64,000 nucleotides of DNA, taken from positions 1 to 64,000 of the IMG/VR virus record IMGVR_UViG_3300020577_012633. One strand, written 5' to 3'. A program made the translations under genes and the position numbers. The stretch is from a virus (taxonomy: Duplodnaviria; Caudoviricetes). A model generated the notes under the pieces. That model was not told the origin of the DNA. It saw only the letters and a program-made list of their open reading frames with translations, and ran no database searches. Of this stretch, positions 1,929 through 35,183 are shown piece by piece (position 1 is the stretch's first letter; every line of letters starts with the position of its first letter).

Positions 1929-3203
1929 TTATCCCTTCAGAACTGCAACTGGCTTCAATTCTGTTTGAATGTTTACCAGATCTTTTTGATTTTCCATAAC
2001 AGTATCAATATCTTTGTATGCGCTGCCAAGTTCGTCGTGAGCCTCTCTGACTCCGTATAGTTCCACAGAACCAAGCTGAGAGGCTTGAGAAGGATCAAGA
2101 CCTTCGGCAATACGTTTTTTAGCGGTAGTTCTGCTAAAATTTCGACCTGATCCATGAGAGCATGAGTTGAAGCTATCTGCGTTTTCTTTGCCCTTTACGA
2201 TATAGCTTTTGCTACACATAGAACCAGGAATAATACCAACTGTAGTTCTACGAGCGAGAGTAGCTCCCTTACGGTGAACCCATACATTTTGTCCAAAATG
2301 GTTTTCGATTGTTGCATAGTTGTGGTGAATGTTCACAATGTCTTTTACTGGATTCGCACCTGCCCATTTTTGTTCGCGCAGAGCTTCTTGGCAAACAATC
2401 ATCATTAGATGACGATTCACAAGAGCATACTCTTGAGCAGCTAAAAGACTTGCGATATACCATTGTCCTTCTTCAGAATCAGATGGCATAAAAGCAAGTT
2501 CTTCGTTTTCAAGACGAGTAAAATACTTGCGGCATGTCTTTACTGCAAGATGATGGAATTTCTTTGCGAGTTGCGCGCCAAGTCCACGAGATCCGCTATG
2601 CAGCATAAACCAGGCATTGCCTTCAGAGTCTTGCTGAAGTTCAATGAAATGGTTTCCTCCACCAAGGGTTCCTATTTGAACTTTTGCGCGAGACCACTCA
2701 GGATAATCTAGTGTTTTGCATATCTCTTTGGCTTGTTCAAATTTTTCTTGAACAGATTGTATTTCTCCTTTGATTCGCTCATGACCAAGCCAAATATCAC
2801 TATTTGTTCTGTTTTTTCCTTCGCCAACAGGAATATCATCTTTGATCGAAGTCATTAGCTCTCGAACGTTAAGATCTGAAACTTTAATACCTGAATTCCA
2901 CGCACACATTCCGCACCCGATATCAACGCCAACTGCGTTCGGGGAGATTGCATTAATAAGAGGCAATACTGATCCAACAGGAACTCCAAAACCTGTATGA
3001 GCATCAGGCATAAGAGCTACATGATGGAAGACGCAAGGAAGCCTTGCCGCCTGAGAGACCTGTCTTATTGCGCCTTCTTCCAAATTGAGGATTGGCTTTC
3101 CAGTTTCAGGATCTACATCCTTAGTCCAACACTTCACTGGAACTCCGCCAGTTTCTTCAGGAGGAATTACTACCGGACCAAGTTTTTCTGAAGTTGATTC
3201 CAT
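1929..3203 (-). CDS. rtcB: RtcB 3'-phosphate/2',3'-cyclic phosphate RNA ligase
   Basis: MPDAHxG, GVDIGCGM, GGGNHFIE, HSGSRG, HHNY, HRKGA and SHGSGR motifs; start at MESTSEK after AAGGA. Confidence 0.95.
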   Translation of the reverse strand: MESTSEKLGPVVIPPEETGGVPVKCWTKDVDPETGKPILNLEEGAIRQVSQAARLPCVFHHVALMPDAHTGFGVPVGSVLPLINAISPNAVGVDIGCGMCAWNSGIKVSDLNVRELMTSIKDDIPVGEGKNRTNSDIWLGHERIKGEIQSVQEKFEQAKEICKTLDYPEWSRAKVQIGTLGGGNHFIELQQDSEGNAWFMLHSGSRGLGAQLAKKFHHLAVKTCRKYFTRLENEELAFMPSDSEEGQWYIASLLAAQEYALVNRHLMMIVCQEALREQKWAGANPVKDIVNIHHNYATIENHFGQNVWVHRKGATLARRTTVGIIPGSMCSKSYIVKGKENADSFNSCSHGSGRNFSRTTAKKRIAEGLDPSQASQLGSVELYGVREAHDELGSAYKDIDTVMENQKDLVNIQTELKPVAVLKG

Positions 3204-31218: not shown

Positions 31219-32859
31219 TTACTTAGTACGCAAGGGACGCTTAATGAAATCAGACATGACGGCAGGTGCGGAGGTGTCGAAGCCCACGCAATCCATCATT
31301 CCAGGATCATTAGGATCGGCAATGCTGAACGGAGTACCAGTCATGCCGCAAACAACCAACTTGGCCTCAGGCTTACGCTGGTTACGATACTGGCGAAGAG
31401 CCTCAGCAGGCTTAATGTCACCTGCCCAGGTCTCGTTGTCGGTGTAGACAAAGAAACCATCAACATCAAGCTTGTGCTTAGATGCATGAACCATAGGCAG
31501 AGAACAATCCGTTCCGCTGAATGGCAATCCTGAGATTACCTTAAGCACTCCATCAAGACGCATACGAGGACTGATCTTCAGCTCAATCAGGTCTGTTGAG
31601 AATCCTACAATATGATAGTTCTTTTCAGAACGAGCAGTTGCAAGAGCCATAACAGCCGTACCTTCGCGAGGAGTTACGAATTCCAAGCCTCCAATGCTTC
31701 CCATGCTCATTGAACCTGAAACATCCAAAGCAAGCATGATGTTCTTACCTGAAGGTTCAATAGCGTCAAATGCCATGTAAAGCATTTCATCAAGAGCATC
31801 GTTGATTTGCTGAATAGGAGTCCAGGTCAAAGAACCCTTAATGCCGCGACCTTGAGCATAAGTCTTGAGAGCAGCAAGGACTGCAATCGGGTGAATGCGA
31901 GCCTTCTTGATTGCTTCAGGATTCGTAAGACGAGCAATAACAGTCTTCAATTCGCTCGAAAGCGGCTTGAGAACGCCATATGAAGTCATACGGTTCAAGG
32001 TACGCAAGGTTGCGCCAAGAGGCATGTTAGGAAGAAGCGCAGCCCAAACCTTCGGGTCGTTGGCGACTTCCTTTGGAACCAACTCGTGAGGAAGCTGATA
32101 TTCCTCAACAATCTTAGCAACAATATTCGCGTTCGTCTGGCCCTTGATCTTGTTTGCTCCTTCGAGGATAGACAAACTCTCAGGAACCTTCTTAGGAAGT
32201 TCACCGTCCTTGGTTACATAGTTATAGATCATATTGTGAAGTTCATCACCATGAGCGTGACACTTACGCAAGAGATCTGAGTGAGACCAGGCTGACTTTG
32301 CGTTACCTTCCTCGGCTGTACGCTGAGGATACTTGACAACCTGAAGCGCAAGGCGATCAGGAGTCATACCGTTGTACCAGTTAGAGAATGCGTTACGAAG
32401 TCCTGAACCCCAGCCACGAAGACCGTCAACATAGTGAGCGAATTGGAAAAGATGAGTACCAATACGCGCAACCTTTGGAAGAGAATCAAGAGCAAGGCGG
32501 CGAGTAGGAAGATCTCCCTGAGAAGCACAGATTGCAAGCGCAAAGAGAGCAGGATCGTTCTTTGGAGCGCGACCTGAATCGCTAATCTCAACGATCTTCT
32601 GAACGGTACGAGTACCGTTTTCTGCAACGCAATCAACGACATTCTTAGCGTTGTCAAGAGCCATCTTGTGCTGAGTGCAATACATAGTTGCACCATCAGT
32701 ACCTAGGATGAGGAAGCGATCTAGGCGATCCCACTTGTCAATTTCATAAACATAACCACCTGCGTTATTCTTCACAGTGCCAGGAGTAGGGGTGGTTTGA
32801 GAAGTGACCTTTGGGGTCTTGGTAGTAATCGCTGCTGACGCCTTGCTGAACTTTGCCAT
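31219..32859 (-). CDS. rsr: Ro60/Rsr TROVE-domain RNA-binding protein with vWA domain
   Basis: NNAGG, RFLILG, RGWG, WSHxDLLR, LDVSGSM (MIDAS), GTDCSLP, YTDNETW and VGFD; start MAKF after AGGAG. Confidence 0.95.
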   Translation of the reverse strand: MAKFSKASAAITTKTPKVTSQTTPTPGTVKNNAGGYVYEIDKWDRLDRFLILGTDGATMYCTQHKMALDNAKNVVDCVAENGTRTVQKIVEISDSGRAPKNDPALFALAICASQGDLPTRRLALDSLPKVARIGTHLFQFAHYVDGLRGWGSGLRNAFSNWYNGMTPDRLALQVVKYPQRTAEEGNAKSAWSHSDLLRKCHAHGDELHNMIYNYVTKDGELPKKVPESLSILEGANKIKGQTNANIVAKIVEEYQLPHELVPKEVANDPKVWAALLPNMPLGATLRTLNRMTSYGVLKPLSSELKTVIARLTNPEAIKKARIHPIAVLAALKTYAQGRGIKGSLTWTPIQQINDALDEMLYMAFDAIEPSGKNIMLALDVSGSMSMGSIGGLEFVTPREGTAVMALATARSEKNYHIVGFSTDLIELKISPRMRLDGVLKVISGLPFSGTDCSLPMVHASKHKLDVDGFFVYTDNETWAGDIKPAEALRQYRNQRKPEAKLVVCGMTGTPFSIADPNDPGMMDCVGFDTSAPAVMSDFIKRPLRTK

Positions 32860-32872
32860 ATCAAAACTCCTT

Positions 32873-33436
32873 CTAATCGACTTCAACAGGTGTTGTTGAA
32901 GTATTCAAAACTGCCACCTCTGCTATTGAATTTGCAGATCGAGGTTCAGTATACGACTGAGCCTCATAGTGGTCAAGTATAAAATGATTGATTTCTTCTT
33001 TTGTCGGCCTCGGTGGTCTATTTATGAAATCTTCCACCGTATCCTTGAAAACAAAAATATCTTTTACTCTTACTTCTTTTCTCGGGTCAAATGGAGTAAA
33101 CCATTTTTCCTCAACATTTATTTCCATGTACCAGCTATATTGCCAATTTTCTATCGTAAATTCTCTAGGGTCTAAGAACTTTCTACCAGCTATATGAATA
33201 GCTGTAGCTCTATGAAGACCATCATGAACAAACAAAGCTCCATCTTCAAACCTGACAATCTTGATGAGATCGTCAATCTTGAGCAGTTTTGAAGTCTTTT
33301 CAATTTTCTTTTTAGGGAATATTGAAAGATTATCTTTTGTAAAGATTCCACCACTTTTAACAAAATTAACCATTTCTGGTATTTGTTCTGCGTTGCGCAG
33401 ATAATTTTGCATCGGAATGAGAGAATCTACTAGCAT
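32873..33436 (-). CDS. ParB/Srx-like fold protein
   Basis: PMQ...VHDGLHRATA resembles the ParB-N DGxHR motif; lies between the ncRNA array and rsr. Confidence 0.5.
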   Translation of the reverse strand: MLVDSLIPMQNYLRNAEQIPEMVNFVKSGGIFTKDNLSIFPKKKIEKTSKLLKIDDLIKIVRFEDGALFVHDGLHRATAIHIAGRKFLDPREFTIENWQYSWYMEINVEEKWFTPFDPRKEVRVKDIFVFKDTVEDFINRPPRPTKEEINHFILDHYEAQSYTEPRSANSIAEVAVLNTSTTPVEVD

Positions 33437-33440
33437 TTAA

Positions 33441-33564
33441 TGCGTCCGCCGGGATTCGAACCCGGACTATATCTTGGATAGAGATAACCTTTTCCTATCG
33501 ACCTGTTTTACCAGATGTGTTGTTGGTCAAGGGTTTTATGTGCTAGCCATTACACTACAGACGC
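33441..33564 (-). ncRNA. tRNA-shaped RNA with a 52-nt Y-RNA-like stem inserted between the D and anticodon arms
   Basis: acceptor GCGUCUG/CGGACGC-A; D arm GUGU-AAUGGCUA-GCAC; AC-like arm UAUCU-CUAUCCA-AGAUA; T arm CCGGG-UUCGAAU-CCCGG; insert has AACAACAC / GGUCGAUA...GGUUAUC. Confidence 0.85.
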
Positions 33565-33578
33565 CTTATTCAATTGTC

Positions 33579-33660
33579 AAAAAGAAAACTCAGGTATGGT
33601 AATAGAAGACGGTTTAACTATGATCAGATAACCGTCTTCAATCGACTGGAATCTTCTTCT
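33579..33660 (-). ncRNA. Y-RNA-like hairpin without tRNA domain
   Basis: CAGUCGAUU-GAAGACGGUU...AACCGUCUUC-UAUUACCAU-ACCUG; 10-bp perfect upper stem. Confidence 0.7.
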
Positions 33661-33661
33661 A

Positions 33662-33695
33662 AAACGGTTCTTGAAGTTGCCTTCAAAAACCGCTT
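33662..33695 (-). other. 15-bp hairpin with GCAA tetraloop between ncRNA units
   Basis: AAGCGGUUUUUGAAG-GCAA-CUUCAAGAACCGUUU. Confidence 0.7.
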
Positions 33696-33955
33696 GAATA
33701 TTTGGTTTACTGCTGTGCTTACTTAGGCCACCAAACAGTACGATGTAAGGGGTTCTCACCCTTTTTTGTCAAATCCTAAGACCTGACTTTGATCGTAAAC
33801 CGCCAAAATGCCACTTTTGACAATACCGTTCAAACCCTGGCTAGAGTCACCCTAGTCACCCGTCTACGACCTGTATAGGTTCAACACTATGCGTGTTTAC
33901 CATCGTTGCCCACTGTCCTTGAGCAATCAAGGACTTTCGAAAACCATCTATTCAA
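33694..33955 (-). ncRNA. unidentified ~262-nt multi-branched structured RNA
   Basis: closing stem UUGAAUA..UGGUUU/AAACCA..UAUUCAA plus at least five internal helices and a T-loop-like hairpin. Confidence 0.6.
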
Positions 33956-33963
33956 ATGTCAAA

Positions 33964-34026
33964 GTACCGAATATGTTGTTGAAAAAAGACGTTTTTCAGG
34001 TTAATCTTTTCTCTTCGACTCGATAC
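33964..34026 (-). ncRNA. minimal Y-RNA-like hairpin
   Basis: GUAUCGAGU-CGAA-GAGAAAAGAU...GUCUUUUUUC-AACAACAU-AUUCGGUAC. Confidence 0.7.
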
Positions 34027-34071
34027 AAATGCCTGCAAAGGCCGTCTAAGCCTAGGTCAGGAAAAAAGAAT

Positions 34072-34155
34072 CGGAAAAGGTATTAATTGGCGAACGGGTG
34101 CCTTTCGGCGTACTTGCAAATTGTAAGTTAACCGTCCATCCTTCGACCAGTTCCG
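34072..34155 (-). ncRNA. Y-RNA-like RNA with branched apex
   Basis: CGGAA..GGU-CGAA-GG.UGGACGG-UUAAC...GCC-GAAA-GGC...CCGUUCG-CC-AAUUAAU-ACC..UUCCG. Confidence 0.7.
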
Positions 34156-34205
34156 TCTTATTCTATTTTACTGAAAGTTCTTTGGTAGGCGTTTCAGTAT
34201 TTCTT

Positions 34206-34233
34206 CTATCGGCAAGAATCAAAAAGAACTTGA
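34206..34233 (-). promoter_or_regulatory. putative promoter of the ncRNA array/rsr operon (sigma28-like)
   Basis: TCAAG-N15-GCCGATAG on the minus strand, ~50 nt before the first RNA unit. Confidence 0.55.
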
Positions 34234-34250
34234 ATTCTTCCACGAATTTA

Positions 34251-35183
34251 TTATACGGCAGACAAAGAAGGGGAGTCAACAGTCCTCTCTATTTCTTGTG
34301 CTTTTTTGAGCGCAAAATCCTTGGCCTTAAACTCATAATCCAGATCTACATTATAGCCGTAAGTATTTGGAGTATATGTAGGATATTCTGCATGTTTTCT
34401 TGGATTATTTTGACCAGGAAGAGATTCGCAAAAATGAAACAAAGGTTTATAAGAACCCCAAGTCTGAGCGCAAAGCTCAAAAGCTTCTTTTTCTGTGAGT
34501 CCTCCACTATTGCAACGATGGTGCAAATAATCGAATGTTATTGGAATACCAGTAAGACTATGGATATATTCAACTAGATTGCGAGCGTTCCATATTCCTT
34601 TGTCCTCAGTCTCTACCACAAGACGGCTTTTAGCAGCCTCGTCAAGCCTCTCTAAACCATCTTTGAAGCGTTTGGCGATGTCTTTGGGGTCTCCGTTAGA
34701 ACCATTGATATGGATGTTTACAGGCGATTCTGGCGACAATGGAGAGCCAAGCTTAGACATGAACCAGCCATGATGATTCAATTCACGTATCGTGCTATCA
34801 ACTGATTTTTCATTTTTACTCGCAAGAACATTGAATTGGTCTGGATGACAAGAAAGTCTAACATGATTCAGTAAAGCTGCTTCTGCGCAACTAAGAAAAA
34901 GATTATCCAGTTCTTTTACGTTTGGAAGATTTTCCCATTTGATATTTGACTCAGGATGAGTCATAAGCGGGAAGATATCACTACTAACCCGATAGCACCA
35001 TCCATTTGCGATGCAATGAGTTAAAATTTTTCGTATAACTTTCAGATTGTTTTCGTATTTTTCTGAAAGAATAGAAAGAGCTTTATCTTCTAATTGAACG
35101 AATCGAGTCCATGTCATAGTTTGAAAACTATAACCAGACTCTTTTAGACCATTGTGAATGCAACAAAGACCTTTATTACCCAT
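34251..35183 (-). CDS. uvsE: UV damage endonuclease
   Basis: GLCC, YRVSSDIFP, RLSCHPDQF, ETED, FDYLHH and H-x-E motifs; start moved to MGNKGLCC. Confidence 0.9.
   Translation of the reverse strand: MGNKGLCCIHNGLKESGYSFQTMTWTRFVQLEDKALSILSEKYENNLKVIRKILTHCIANGWCYRVSSDIFPLMTHPESNIKWENLPNVKELDNLFLSCAEAALLNHVRLSCHPDQFNVLASKNEKSVDSTIRELNHHGWFMSKLGSPLSPESPVNIHINGSNGDPKDIAKRFKDGLERLDEAAKSRLVVETEDKGIWNARNLVEYIHSLTGIPITFDYLHHRCNSGGLTEKEAFELCAQTWGSYKPLFHFCESLPGQNNPRKHAEYPTYTPNTYGYNVDLDYEFKAKDFALKKAQEIERTVDSPSLSAV

What the first reader, a model, noticed from the sequence alone, without database searches (positions are those of the whole stretch)
33441..33564. tRNA/Y-RNA chimera in the un-permuted orientation
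Seen: a 124-nt element made of a 72-nt cloverleaf plus a 52-nt insert (33487-33538) between the D arm and an anticodon-like arm (loop CUAUCCA, non-canonical C37). The insert carries the same internal-loop module as the neighbouring units but with strand order reversed: CCUUGACC-AACAACAC-AUCUG-[GUAAAA]-CAGGU-CGAUA-GGAAAAGG. The putative Ro-binding stem is therefore capped by a loop and the free ends lie in a true acceptor stem. Established: canonical YrlA has its ends in the Ro stem and a loop-closed acceptor stem. Inference: this circular permutant could be matured by RNase P and CCA addition, and even aminoacylated, or could act as bait for anticodon nucleases while tethered to Ro60. It may be an evolutionary intermediate between tRNA and YrlA.
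Basis: partly seen in the sequence, partly recalled or inferred. Interest (0 to 1): 0.88.

Follow-up and report, generated by a model that had tools for sequence, protein, structure and literature searches.

The report
tRNA-shaped Y RNA beside phage Ro60
This 124-base gene of a large uncultured phage encodes a small RNA wired like an ordinary tRNA with open ends, carrying as an extra arm the docking module of the Y RNAs that partner the Ro60 protein; the same design sits beside Ro60 genes of many phages and bacteria, and I found no description of it in print.

Summary
Window 33564-33441 (minus strand) matches Rfam's tRNA model at 43 bits. It has a 7-bp acceptor stem, D and T arms, an A15:U48 pair, and a 52-nt arm between position 26 and an anticodon-like hairpin.

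That arm is the same module as the neighbouring Y-like hairpins (AACAACAY opposite GUCGAW), with the strand order reversed and the distal stem capped by a loop. The element lies 581 nt upstream of a phage Ro60 gene, in one promoter-led RNA array.

It is not a one-off:
- I found 46 distinct elements of this design beside Ro60 genes. They include Desulfonema magnum and Planctomycetota chromosomes, where the long forms occur only at the Ro60 locus.
- Both stems of the arm covary.
- CCA is encoded after the discriminator in 9 of 52 relatives.

The best reading is a YrlA-type Y RNA in native tRNA order, a circular permutation of published YrlA, matured like a tRNA and bound by Ro60. Binding, expression, charging and any decoy role are untested.

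This scan has already noted the same design in several other genomes. I found no paper describing it, but the two main Y RNA reviews could not be read.

The parts
33441..33564 (-). Whole tRNA-order Y RNA gene (124 nt, including discriminator A at 33441)
   Evidence: Rfam tRNA 43 bits. Family model R1 91.9 bits.
33558..33564 (-). Acceptor stem 5' strand, GCGUCUG
   Evidence: 7/7 pairs with 33442-33448. In signature-only candidates, 7/7 pairing occurs only in this register: 29 of 85 against 0 of 85 in six shifted registers.
33540..33555 (-). D arm, GUGU-AAUGGCUA-GCAC
   Evidence: U8, A14, GG and A21 are conserved in the family.
33487..33538 (-). 52-nt extra arm, the putative Ro60-binding module, closed by a loop
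   Evidence: Sequence. Family alignment A2 and pair counts.
33529..33532 (-). Lower stem 5' strand, CCUU (pairs with 33488-33491, AAGG)
   Evidence: Helix 3: 76% of cells paired, and all 5 pairs show changes on both sides.
33517..33524 (-). A/C-rich internal-loop strand, AACAACAC
   Evidence: Matches AACAACAU of neighbour unit 33964-34026 and the family consensus around CAACUU.
33501..33516 (-). Upper hairpin AUCUG-GUAAAA-CAGGU, which caps the module
   Evidence: Helix 4: 84% paired with compensatory changes. RNAalifold finds it unaided.
33495..33502 (-). GUCGAUAG, the variant of the YrlA motif GNCGAAN0-1G
   Evidence: The G of CGA is invariant and the preceding C is present in 28 of 34. The motif is defined in PMC4201824.
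33470..33487 (-). UUAUC junction motif and anticodon-like hairpin UAUCU-CUAUCCA-AGAUA
   Evidence: UUA.C is invariant in 34 of 34. In 20 of 51 relatives the 7-nt loop has U at position 2 and a purine at position 6, against 3.6 in shuffles. Here position 6 is C.
33449..33465 (-). T arm, CCGGG-UUCGAAU-CCCGG
33442..33448 (-). Acceptor stem 3' strand, CGGACGC. No CCA is encoded.
   Evidence: The phage's own tRNA genes also lack an encoded CCA.
33579..33660 (-). Neighbouring Y-like hairpin in canonical strand order (GUCGAUUG ... GGUUAUC)
   Evidence: Fold z = -4.2.
33964..34026 (-). Neighbouring Y-like hairpin: outer stem, CGAA opposite AACAACAU, inner stem
34072..34155 (-). Neighbouring Y-like unit (GGUCGAAGG ... 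GGUUAAC)
   Evidence: The fold is weaker (z = -1.6).
34250..34279 (-). Near-consensus sigma-70-type promoter at the head of the RNA array
   Evidence: TTGACT-18-TATAAT, 11 of 12 matches.
32873..33436 (-). ORF187 (DGLHR motif). Its ATG lies 4 nt after the element.
   Evidence: (no Pfam hit). A syntenic copy is present in L002.
31219..32859 (-). Ro60 / TROVE + vWA gene (546 aa)
   Evidence: Pfam PF05731 6e-33 and PF25045 1e-60. Homologues.

Best explanation
The element is a gene for a Y RNA of the YrlA kind, laid out in native tRNA order.

**Structure.** Its two ends pair into a true 7-bp acceptor stem. D and T arms build a tRNA elbow. Between the D arm and an anticodon-like hairpin it carries an extra arm: lower stem, internal loop AACAACAC opposite GUCGAU, and a loop-capped upper stem. 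This arm is the module thought to dock Ro60.

**Proposed mechanism (inferred, not shown).**
- It is transcribed from the promoter at 34279-34250 together with three hairpin-type Y-like RNAs, ORF187 and Ro60.
- Its ends are cut as tRNA ends: RNase P at the 5' side, a tRNA 3' processing enzyme plus the CCA-adding enzyme at the 3' side.
- The 3' cut also frees the ORF187-Ro60 message with almost no leader.
- The mature RNA binds the phage Ro60 through the extra arm and presents a tRNA-like body with a free CCA end to a tRNA-recognising partner.
For: **tRNA body.**
- Rfam tRNA 43 bits.
- The Levitt 15:48 pair is A:U here. Across the family it switches between A:U (18) and G:C (13) of 34.

**YrlA motifs.** GNCGAW, UUAUC, and D and T arms occur in the order expected for a rotated YrlA.

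**Family.**
- 46 distinct elements lie beside Ro60 genes on the same strand.
- On a MAFFT alignment not fitted to the structure, 86.9% of cells pair, against 62% in shuffles and 38-47% in slid registers. Both stems of the extra arm show compensatory changes.
- The window scores 91.9 bits on model R1.

**Link to Ro60.**
- In the complete Desulfonema magnum chromosome and one Planctomycetota chromosome, every long hit lies in the Ro60 locus. All other hits are plain 70-75-nt tRNAs.
- The window's Ro60 sits in a clade (local support 99) of 18 loci. Ten of these carry this form and none carries the permuted one.

**tRNA-like ends.**
- CCA follows the discriminator in 9 of 52 relatives.
- The phage's own tRNAs also lack an encoded CCA.
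- 9 of its 24 tRNAs are followed by an ORF start within 2-5 nt, as this element is.
- Precedent: M. smegmatis YrlA is cut by RNase P and receives CCA in vivo.

**Transcription.** A promoter-like site heads the array.
Against: - There are no transcript, end-mapping or binding data for this or any related element.
- That GNCGAA contacts Ro60 is itself an inference in the literature for YrlA.
- The motif here is CGAU, not CGAA.
- The fold energy of the insert is no better than that of shuffles.
- Four close Ro60 relatives with full flanks (L007, L011, L033, L034) have no such element within 3-4 kb.
- The same phage has a second copy 75 kb from Ro60, so adjacency is not obligatory.
- The acceptor and T stems were selection criteria in my scan, so their 100% pairing is partly circular. 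The register control addresses this only in part.
Confidence: 0.72

Rival explanations
1. It is an interrupted tRNA gene. The 52 nt are an intervening sequence that is cut out and the halves are religated (the phage encodes RtcB), giving a decoding tRNA with anticodon AUC.
For: - Removing 33487-33538 leaves a perfect 72-nt cloverleaf.
- 20 of 51 relatives have an anticodon-like 7-nt loop in that hairpin.
- An RtcB gene lies at 1932-3062.
Against: - The loop has C at position 37 and would read A34-U35-C36, which is not a normal tRNA.
- The insert lies at 26/27, not at a known intron site, and no bulge-helix-bulge is evident.
- The insert is conserved, covaries and carries the Y RNA motifs.
- Several relatives lack the hairpin altogether, for example L041:1064-1177, L069 and L108, so no tRNA could result in them.
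- Canonical YrlAs carry the same hairpin without being tRNA precursors.
Confidence: 0.06
2. It is mainly a processing signal: a tRNA-like punctuation element whose job is to be cut so that the ORF187-Ro60 message is released. The extra arm would bind ORF187 or another factor, not Ro60.
For: - ORF187's ATG lies 4 nt after the element with no room for a ribosome-binding site.
- 9 of 24 tRNAs in this genome are followed by ORFs in the same way.
- A second copy sits in the tRNA cluster far from Ro60.
Against: - Punctuation needs only a tRNA shape. It does not explain a conserved, covarying arm with the YrlA motifs.
- It does not explain restriction to Ro60 loci in two whole bacterial genomes.
- In L003 the element is followed directly by Ro60 without ORF187.
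- The two roles are not exclusive.
Confidence: 0.12
3. It is a mis-parsed piece of a canonical, permuted YrlA or of a tandem YrlA array: the D arm of one unit and the T arm of the next.
For: - In tandem arrays with identical acceptor sequences (L041, L044) both readings are possible.
- Model R1 also scores across junctions of tandem canonical units, for example Cashline at 60 bits and A3Wally at 54 bits.
Against: - In the window there is only one T arm and one D arm, in the order D then T. No T arm lies upstream of the element and an ORF starts 4 nt downstream.
- Arrays whose units have different acceptor sequences pair within units, not between them. L008, L025, L029, L035, L036, L038, L061 and L107 show this.
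Confidence: 0.03
4. It is a decayed tRNA pseudogene with a chance insertion and has no function.
For: - ARAGORN does not call it.
- The anticodon loop is non-canonical.
- The fold energy is not exceptional.
Against: - The design is conserved in 46 distinct elements across phages and several bacterial phyla, with compensatory changes.
- A syntenic copy is present in L002, whose Ro60 is 78-80% identical, and it carries substitutions that keep the pairs.
Confidence: 0.02

Closest known systems
YrlA (Y RNA-like A; Rfam RF02553; Chen et al. 2014, PMC4201824; structure in Wang et al. 2018, bioRxiv 10.1101/312249)
   Same: - Encoded within 4 kb of Ro60 on the same strand.
- A GNCGAA-type motif, then YUAY/UUAUC, a hairpin, and a T arm.
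- A D arm with U8, A14 and GG, and covarying 15:48.
- An arm towards the Ro60 module that leaves the tRNA body at the anticodon side.
   Different: - Published YrlA has T before D, a loop-closed acceptor stem, and its 5'/3' ends in the Ro60-module stem ('circularly permuted tRNA').
- Here D precedes T, the acceptor stem is open, and the module stem is loop-closed.
- RF02553 gives no hit in the region at E <= 10.
RNase P-cleaved, CCA-tailed YrlA of Mycobacterium smegmatis (Chen et al. 2014)
   Same: The end product has an open 7-bp acceptor stem with a CCA end, attached to a Ro60-binding module.
   Different: - There the RNA is made permuted and becomes two base-paired pieces after cleavage.
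- Here a single chain would have those ends by gene layout, with no nick in the module.
Deinococcus radiodurans Yrn1
   Same: The D-like and T arms are in tRNA order, and an 'anticodon-like' arm lies between them.
   Different: In Yrn1 the Ro60-binding stem formed by the ends takes the place of the acceptor stem. Here the acceptor stem is a plain tRNA acceptor and the Ro60 module is a separate internal arm.
Hairpin-type bacterial and phage Y RNAs (YrlB; Thermus phage phiLo Yrl1/Yrl2, PMC12135203)
   Same: A stem, an internal loop with CGAA, then a stem. The three neighbouring units in the window are of this kind.
   Different: They have no tRNA body.
Circularly permuted tRNA genes of red algae and one archaeon; class II tRNAs with a long extra arm
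   Same: Permutation of tRNA gene order exists in nature. A five-arm tRNA junction exists in class II tRNAs.
   Different: - Those mature into decoding tRNAs.
- The extra arm of class II tRNAs lies between the anticodon stem and the T arm, not between the D arm and the anticodon-like hairpin.

Membership tests
YrlA-type Y RNA | Encoded near (<= 4 kb) and on the same strand as a Ro60/TROVE gene | tested here: met
   The 3' end lies 581 nt upstream of the Ro60 ATG, on the same strand.
YrlA-type Y RNA | GNCGAAN0-1G motif in the Ro60-module strand | tested here: met
   GUCGAUAG has one departure (U for the second A). CGAU is frequent in the family: 13 of 34 have U at that column.
YrlA-type Y RNA | tRNA-like D and T arms with tertiary-contact nucleotides, YUAY before the V hairpin, covarying 15:48 | tested here: met
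   A15:U48 here. UUAUC is present.
YrlA-type Y RNA | Permuted order: T arm 5' of D arm, acceptor stem closed by a loop, RNA ends in the Ro60-module stem | tested here: not met
   The order is D then T, the acceptor stem is open and the module stem is capped by GUAAAA. Control phages Alice and Cashline do show the permuted order.
YrlA-type Y RNA | Match to Rfam RF02553 at its gathering score (69 bits) | tested here: not met
   No RF02553 hit at E <= 10 in 32800-34400. The model is narrow: canonical phage YrlAs reach only 37-42 bits.
YrlA-type Y RNA | Bound by Ro60/Rsr | not testable with these tools
   Inferred from the motif and from gene linkage only.
tRNA | Cloverleaf matching RF00005 above gathering score, 7-bp acceptor stem, discriminator | tested here: met
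   43 bits against a gathering score of 29.
tRNA | Anticodon arm directly after position 26, with a 7-nt loop, U33 and purine 37, and a sensible anticodon | tested here: not met
   52 nt intervene. The loop CUAUCCA has C37. ARAGORN makes no call.
tRNA | Aminoacylation and decoding | not testable with these tools

The most novel reading that the evidence does not exclude
The tRNA-order Y RNAs carry a functional CCA end that is used. Either they are aminoacylated or bound by EF-Tu, a synthetase or another tRNA-end reader, so that Ro60 is tethered to the translation or tRNA-repair machinery. Or they serve the phage as decoys against host defences that cut or sense tRNAs.
Probability: 0.12. Interest if true: 0.85.

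Novelty: new variant of a known kind. Interest (0 to 1): 0.6.

Why it matters
- **Ends and partners.** Y RNAs of bacteria are described as circularly permuted tRNA mimics that cannot have a CCA end unless cleaved. A widespread sister form with native tRNA wiring, in some lineages with CCA written in the gene, means part of the Ro60 RNA repertoire has true tRNA ends. This changes which enzymes and partners should be considered: RNase P, the CCA-adding enzyme, synthetases, EF-Tu and tRNA-targeting defence nucleases.
- **Origin of YrlA.** One tandem duplication turns either form into the other. The proposal that YrlA arose from dimeric tRNA transcripts therefore becomes testable by comparing the two forms.
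- **Annotation.** These genes are invisible to ARAGORN and look like intron-bearing or pseudo tRNAs to covariance models, so they are likely missed or mislabelled.
- **Experimental system.** A cultured carrier exists (Desulfonema magnum), and possibly a cultured phage (Streptomyces phage Limpid).

Tried and rejected
- I used pattern-based locus searches instead.
- **Searches that found nothing.** blastn of the 1.5-kb region against phage records found nothing. A single-protein pattern scan of viral contigs found nothing.
- **Thermodynamics.** As evidence for the insert it was rejected (z = -0.57).
- **GACC/GGUC pairing.** I considered a vertebrate-like GACC/GGUC helix with a 21-nt loop for the window clade. 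It was rejected because the wider family supports a short capped stem plus an internal loop in those columns.
- **Upstream motif.** The conserved TTGACAWTTGAATA looked like a shared pre-tRNA leader. It was rejected because only 2 of 24 tRNAs have anything like it. Its meaning is open.
- **Signature-only search.** Searching without an acceptor requirement was noisy, because loose D-arm matches and tandem permuted arrays intrude. I used it only as a register control.
- **Hairpin folding.** MFE folding of the anticodon-like segment was unreliable and was replaced by an explicit 7-nt-loop test with shuffles.
- **CCA-adding enzyme.** PF01743 gave no hit in this 24%-complete record, which is uninformative.
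- **Papers not held.** The reviews by Sim & Wolin 2018 and Sim et al. 2020, and my guessed PMC id for Burroughs & Aravind 2016, were not held. The supplements of Chen 2014 are not held. 'Not described' therefore rests on an incomplete reading.

Full report
**What is there.** On the minus strand, 33564-33441 matches Rfam's tRNA model from end to end at 43.0 bits (gathering score 29). 65 nt stand where 13 positions of the anticodon arm are expected. ARAGORN does not call it.

Read directly, the RNA is:
- GCGUCUG (acceptor 5'), UA
- GUGU-AAUGGCUA-GCAC (D arm), A26
- a 52-nt stretch (33538-33487)
- UAUCU-CUAUCCA-AGAUA (a 5-bp stem with a 7-nt loop), UAGU
- CCGGG-UUCGAAU-CCCGG (T arm)
- CGGACGC (acceptor 3'), discriminator A

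A15 and the U before the T stem can form the Levitt pair. The minimum-energy fold gives exactly this five-arm shape, but the energy is only modestly better than that of shuffles (z = -1.94). The 52-nt arm alone is no better than shuffles (z = -0.57). The case therefore rests on comparison, not on energy.

**Context.** The window is part of a 123-kb IMG/VR virus record that CheckV rates as 24% complete.
- It has phage-like gene packing and 24 tRNA genes.
- A TROVE + vWA Ro60 gene lies at 31219-32859, 581 nt downstream of the element on the same strand. A 187-codon ORF lies between them; its ATG is 4 nt after the discriminator.
- Upstream, an ORF-poor block runs to a near-consensus promoter-like site, TTGACT-18-TATAAT, at 34279-34250.
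- That block holds three hairpin units. Unit 33964-34026 folds as outer stem / CGAA / inner stem / AACAACAU / outer stem. Unit 33579-33660 is similar, with GUCGAUUG and a strong fold (z = -4.2).
- The 52-nt arm of the tRNA-like element reads CCUU..AACAACAC-AUCUG[GUAAAA]CAGGU-CGAUA..AAGG. This is the same internal loop with the two strands in the opposite order and the distal stem closed by a loop.

**What the literature says.** Chen et al. 2014 (PMC4201824) define YrlA RNAs by four features:
- a GNCGAAN0-1G motif near the 5' end, thought to contact Ro60;
- a conserved YUAY that begins a V hairpin;
- then a T arm, a loop-closed acceptor-like stem and a D arm;
- a location within 4 kb of Ro60 on the same strand.

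Wang et al. [quoted passage not shown] The exception is M. smegmatis YrlA, which RNase P opens in vivo and which then receives CCA.

If a YrlA is opened at the acceptor loop and closed at the terminal stem, the order becomes: acceptor 5', D arm, 3' strand of the module, cap, GNCGAA strand, YUAY, hairpin, T arm, acceptor 3'. That is the order seen here (GUCGAUAG, then UUAUC).

**It is a family.**
- Alignment-based scans with the Ro60 clade gave 29 viral, 80 metagenomic and 20 genomic Ro60 loci.
- Rfam found further long tRNA hits (120-145 nt) next to Ro60 in several of them.
- My script required a T arm, a perfectly complementary 7-nt acceptor, a D arm and the two motifs. It found 46 distinct elements of 98-145 nt.
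- A MAFFT alignment of 34 of them (A2) shows one architecture: acceptor, D arm, (C)UAAAAC, lower stem, an A/C-rich strand around CAACUU, a short capped stem, CCGAWG, the return strand of the lower stem, an invariant UUA.C, a hairpin, (A)GGUC or UAGU, T arm, acceptor.
- RNAalifold recovers the capped stem unaided.
- Counting pairs for the full model on this unfitted alignment gives 86.9% paired cells, against 62.0% in column shuffles (0 of 500 as high) and 38-47% in slid registers. The lower stem is 76% paired and the capped stem 84%, and every pair of both shows changes on both sides.
- The 15:48 pair switches between A:U (18) and G:C (13) in 34 sequences. This is the same tertiary covariation that Chen et al. 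used for YrlA.

Because acceptor pairing was a selection criterion, I ran a register control on candidates chosen by internal signature only. 29 of 85 have 7/7 pairs in the correct register, and none do in six shifted registers.

**Specificity for Ro60.** A covariance model built from A2 (R1) scores the window element at 91.9 bits.
- It finds the form in bacterial chromosomes too: Desulfonema magnum 4be13 (an array upstream of Ro60, best 112 bits) and MAGs of Thiotrichaceae, Planctomycetota, Myxococcales and Actinomycetota.
- Across the whole D. magnum chromosome and one complete Planctomycetota chromosome, every long hit lies in the Ro60 locus. Everything else is an ordinary 70-75-nt tRNA.
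- With strict criteria, 37 of 133 Ro60 loci have only the tRNA-order form, 25 only the canonical permuted form and 4 both. The permuted-only group includes the positive controls, Mycobacterium phage Alice and Gordonia phage Cashline. In 67 loci neither form was detected, and many of these loci are truncated.
- On a FastTree of Ro60 proteins, the window falls in a clade of 18 (local support 99) with ten tRNA-order loci and no permuted one. Over the tree at least nine switches between the forms are needed. This is a quick tree with strict detection, so the numbers are rough.

**Ends.**
- Discriminator + CCA is written in the gene in 9 of 52 elements, where about 0.8 would be expected by chance. 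These include both top D. magnum copies.
- The window copy has no CCA, but neither do the phage's own tRNA genes.
- In this phage, 9 of 24 tRNAs are followed 2-5 nt after their 3' end by an ATG that opens an ORF of 53-215 codons. The element is followed by ORF187 in the same way.

Together with the M. smegmatis precedent, this makes tRNA-type end maturation the most likely fate. That step is inferred, not shown.

**The small hairpin.**
- In 37 of 51 elements the segment between UUAUC and the T arm can form a stem of at least 3 bp with a 7-nt loop (shuffles: mean 26.5).
- In 20 of 51 that loop has U at position 2 and a purine at position 6 (shuffles: mean 3.6, maximum 13 in 500).
- It is usually followed by (A)GGUC, the common class I variable loop.

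In tRNA terms the hairpin therefore looks like the anticodon arm, and the Ro60 module like an extra arm inserted at 26/27. Chen et al. call the same hairpin 'V'. The window's loop, CUAUCCA, has U33 but C37, and some relatives lack the hairpin entirely. A decoding role after removal of the arm is therefore unlikely.

**How the two forms relate.** In a tandem duplication of either form, the other form is the central piece. Arrays whose units share acceptor sequences (L041, L044) can be read both ways. Model R1, built only from tRNA-order elements, scores 54-60 bits across the junctions of tandem canonical units in the cultured phages Cashline and A3Wally. This fits the dimeric-tRNA origin model quoted by Wang et al., but I cannot give a direction.

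**Function.** Nothing here tests function. Known leads are these:
- Ro60-Y RNA complexes tether PNPase.
- The Ro60 of a Thermus phage binds two phage Y-like RNAs and host PNPase in vitro (PMC12135203).
- A preprint reports that a Ro60-like protein of phage Bas63 counters the Ppl defence system (10.1101/2024.10.10.617714).
- The window also encodes RtcB, which recalls the Salmonella rsr-yrlBA-rtcBA operon.

**Novelty.** I found no paper that describes a tRNA-order YrlA.
- Rfam 15 has RF02553 (YrlA), but it does not hit the region at E <= 10 and barely recognises canonical phage YrlAs.
- The two main reviews and the Chen 2014 supplements could not be read. Chen et al. mention delta-proteobacterial and cyanobacterial YrlAs with 'longer acceptor stems'. 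Some of these might be tandem tRNA-order units read as permuted.
- This scan has noted the same design in several other genomes in recent days. Those are unchecked AI notes and I did not use them as evidence.

**Verdict.** The 'un-permuted YrlA' reading is supported by comparison. Processing at tRNA ends is likely. Charging, a bait role and the 'intermediate' status remain open.

Noticed in passing
G000:C1:108508-108626 (-), outside the window; L135:1501-1619: A second tRNA-order YrlA-like element in the same virus record (78.6 bits with R1). It sits next to tRNA-Lys in the tRNA cluster, 75 kb from Ro60, and has the same ACC-GAAUA-GGU capped stem as relative L002.
   Followed up: partly
Whole record G000; in the window, 33437-33441: 9 of 24 tRNA genes are followed 2-5 nt after their 3' end by an ATG (mostly TTATG) that opens an ORF of 53-215 codons, with no room for a ribosome-binding site. 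This looks like tRNA-punctuated, nearly leaderless messages. ORF187 follows the Y RNA in the same way.
   Followed up: partly
window 1932-3062 (-): An RtcB RNA ligase gene (PF01139, 355 bits) lies in the same phage as Ro60 and the Y-like RNAs. This recalls the Salmonella rsr-yrlBA-rtcBA operon.
   Followed up: no
window 33567-33580 and 33949-33962 (-): Exact TTGACAWTTGAATA lies just upstream of two RNA units. Variants of the TGAATA part precede the tRNA-order elements of L002, L003, L006, L035, L037, L038 and L008. It is not a general tRNA leader in this phage (2 of 24). Whether it is a promoter or a processing signal is unknown.
   Followed up: partly
G000:C1:74373-74449 (-), outside the window: ARAGORN calls a tRNA with anticodon CUA (labelled tRNA-Pyl), that is, an amber-suppressor-type tRNA in the phage.
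   Followed up: no
L144:868-1020 (Streptomyces phage Limpid, MN369754.1, about 66029-66181): An unannotated candidate tRNA-order element (47 bits, 6/7 acceptor pairs) lies between annotated tRNA-Ile and tRNA-Ser, 2.4 kb upstream of the phage's Ro60 gene. It could serve as a cultured test system.
   Followed up: partly
L041:914-1177, L044:1411-1989, L114:1403-2267: These are tandem arrays of tRNA-order units. Where neighbouring units share acceptor sequences, the same DNA can also be read as canonical permuted YrlA with a long acceptor loop.
   Followed up: partly
L007, L011, L033, L034: These close Ro60 relatives (61-67% identity) have full flanks but show no tRNA-like RNA within 3-4 kb by R1 or Rfam. 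Their partner RNAs, if any, are elsewhere or of another kind.
   Followed up: no
window 33694-33955 (-): About 260 nt between the Y-like units are not explained by the Y-module pattern and have no clear counterpart in the syntenic array of L002.
   Followed up: no
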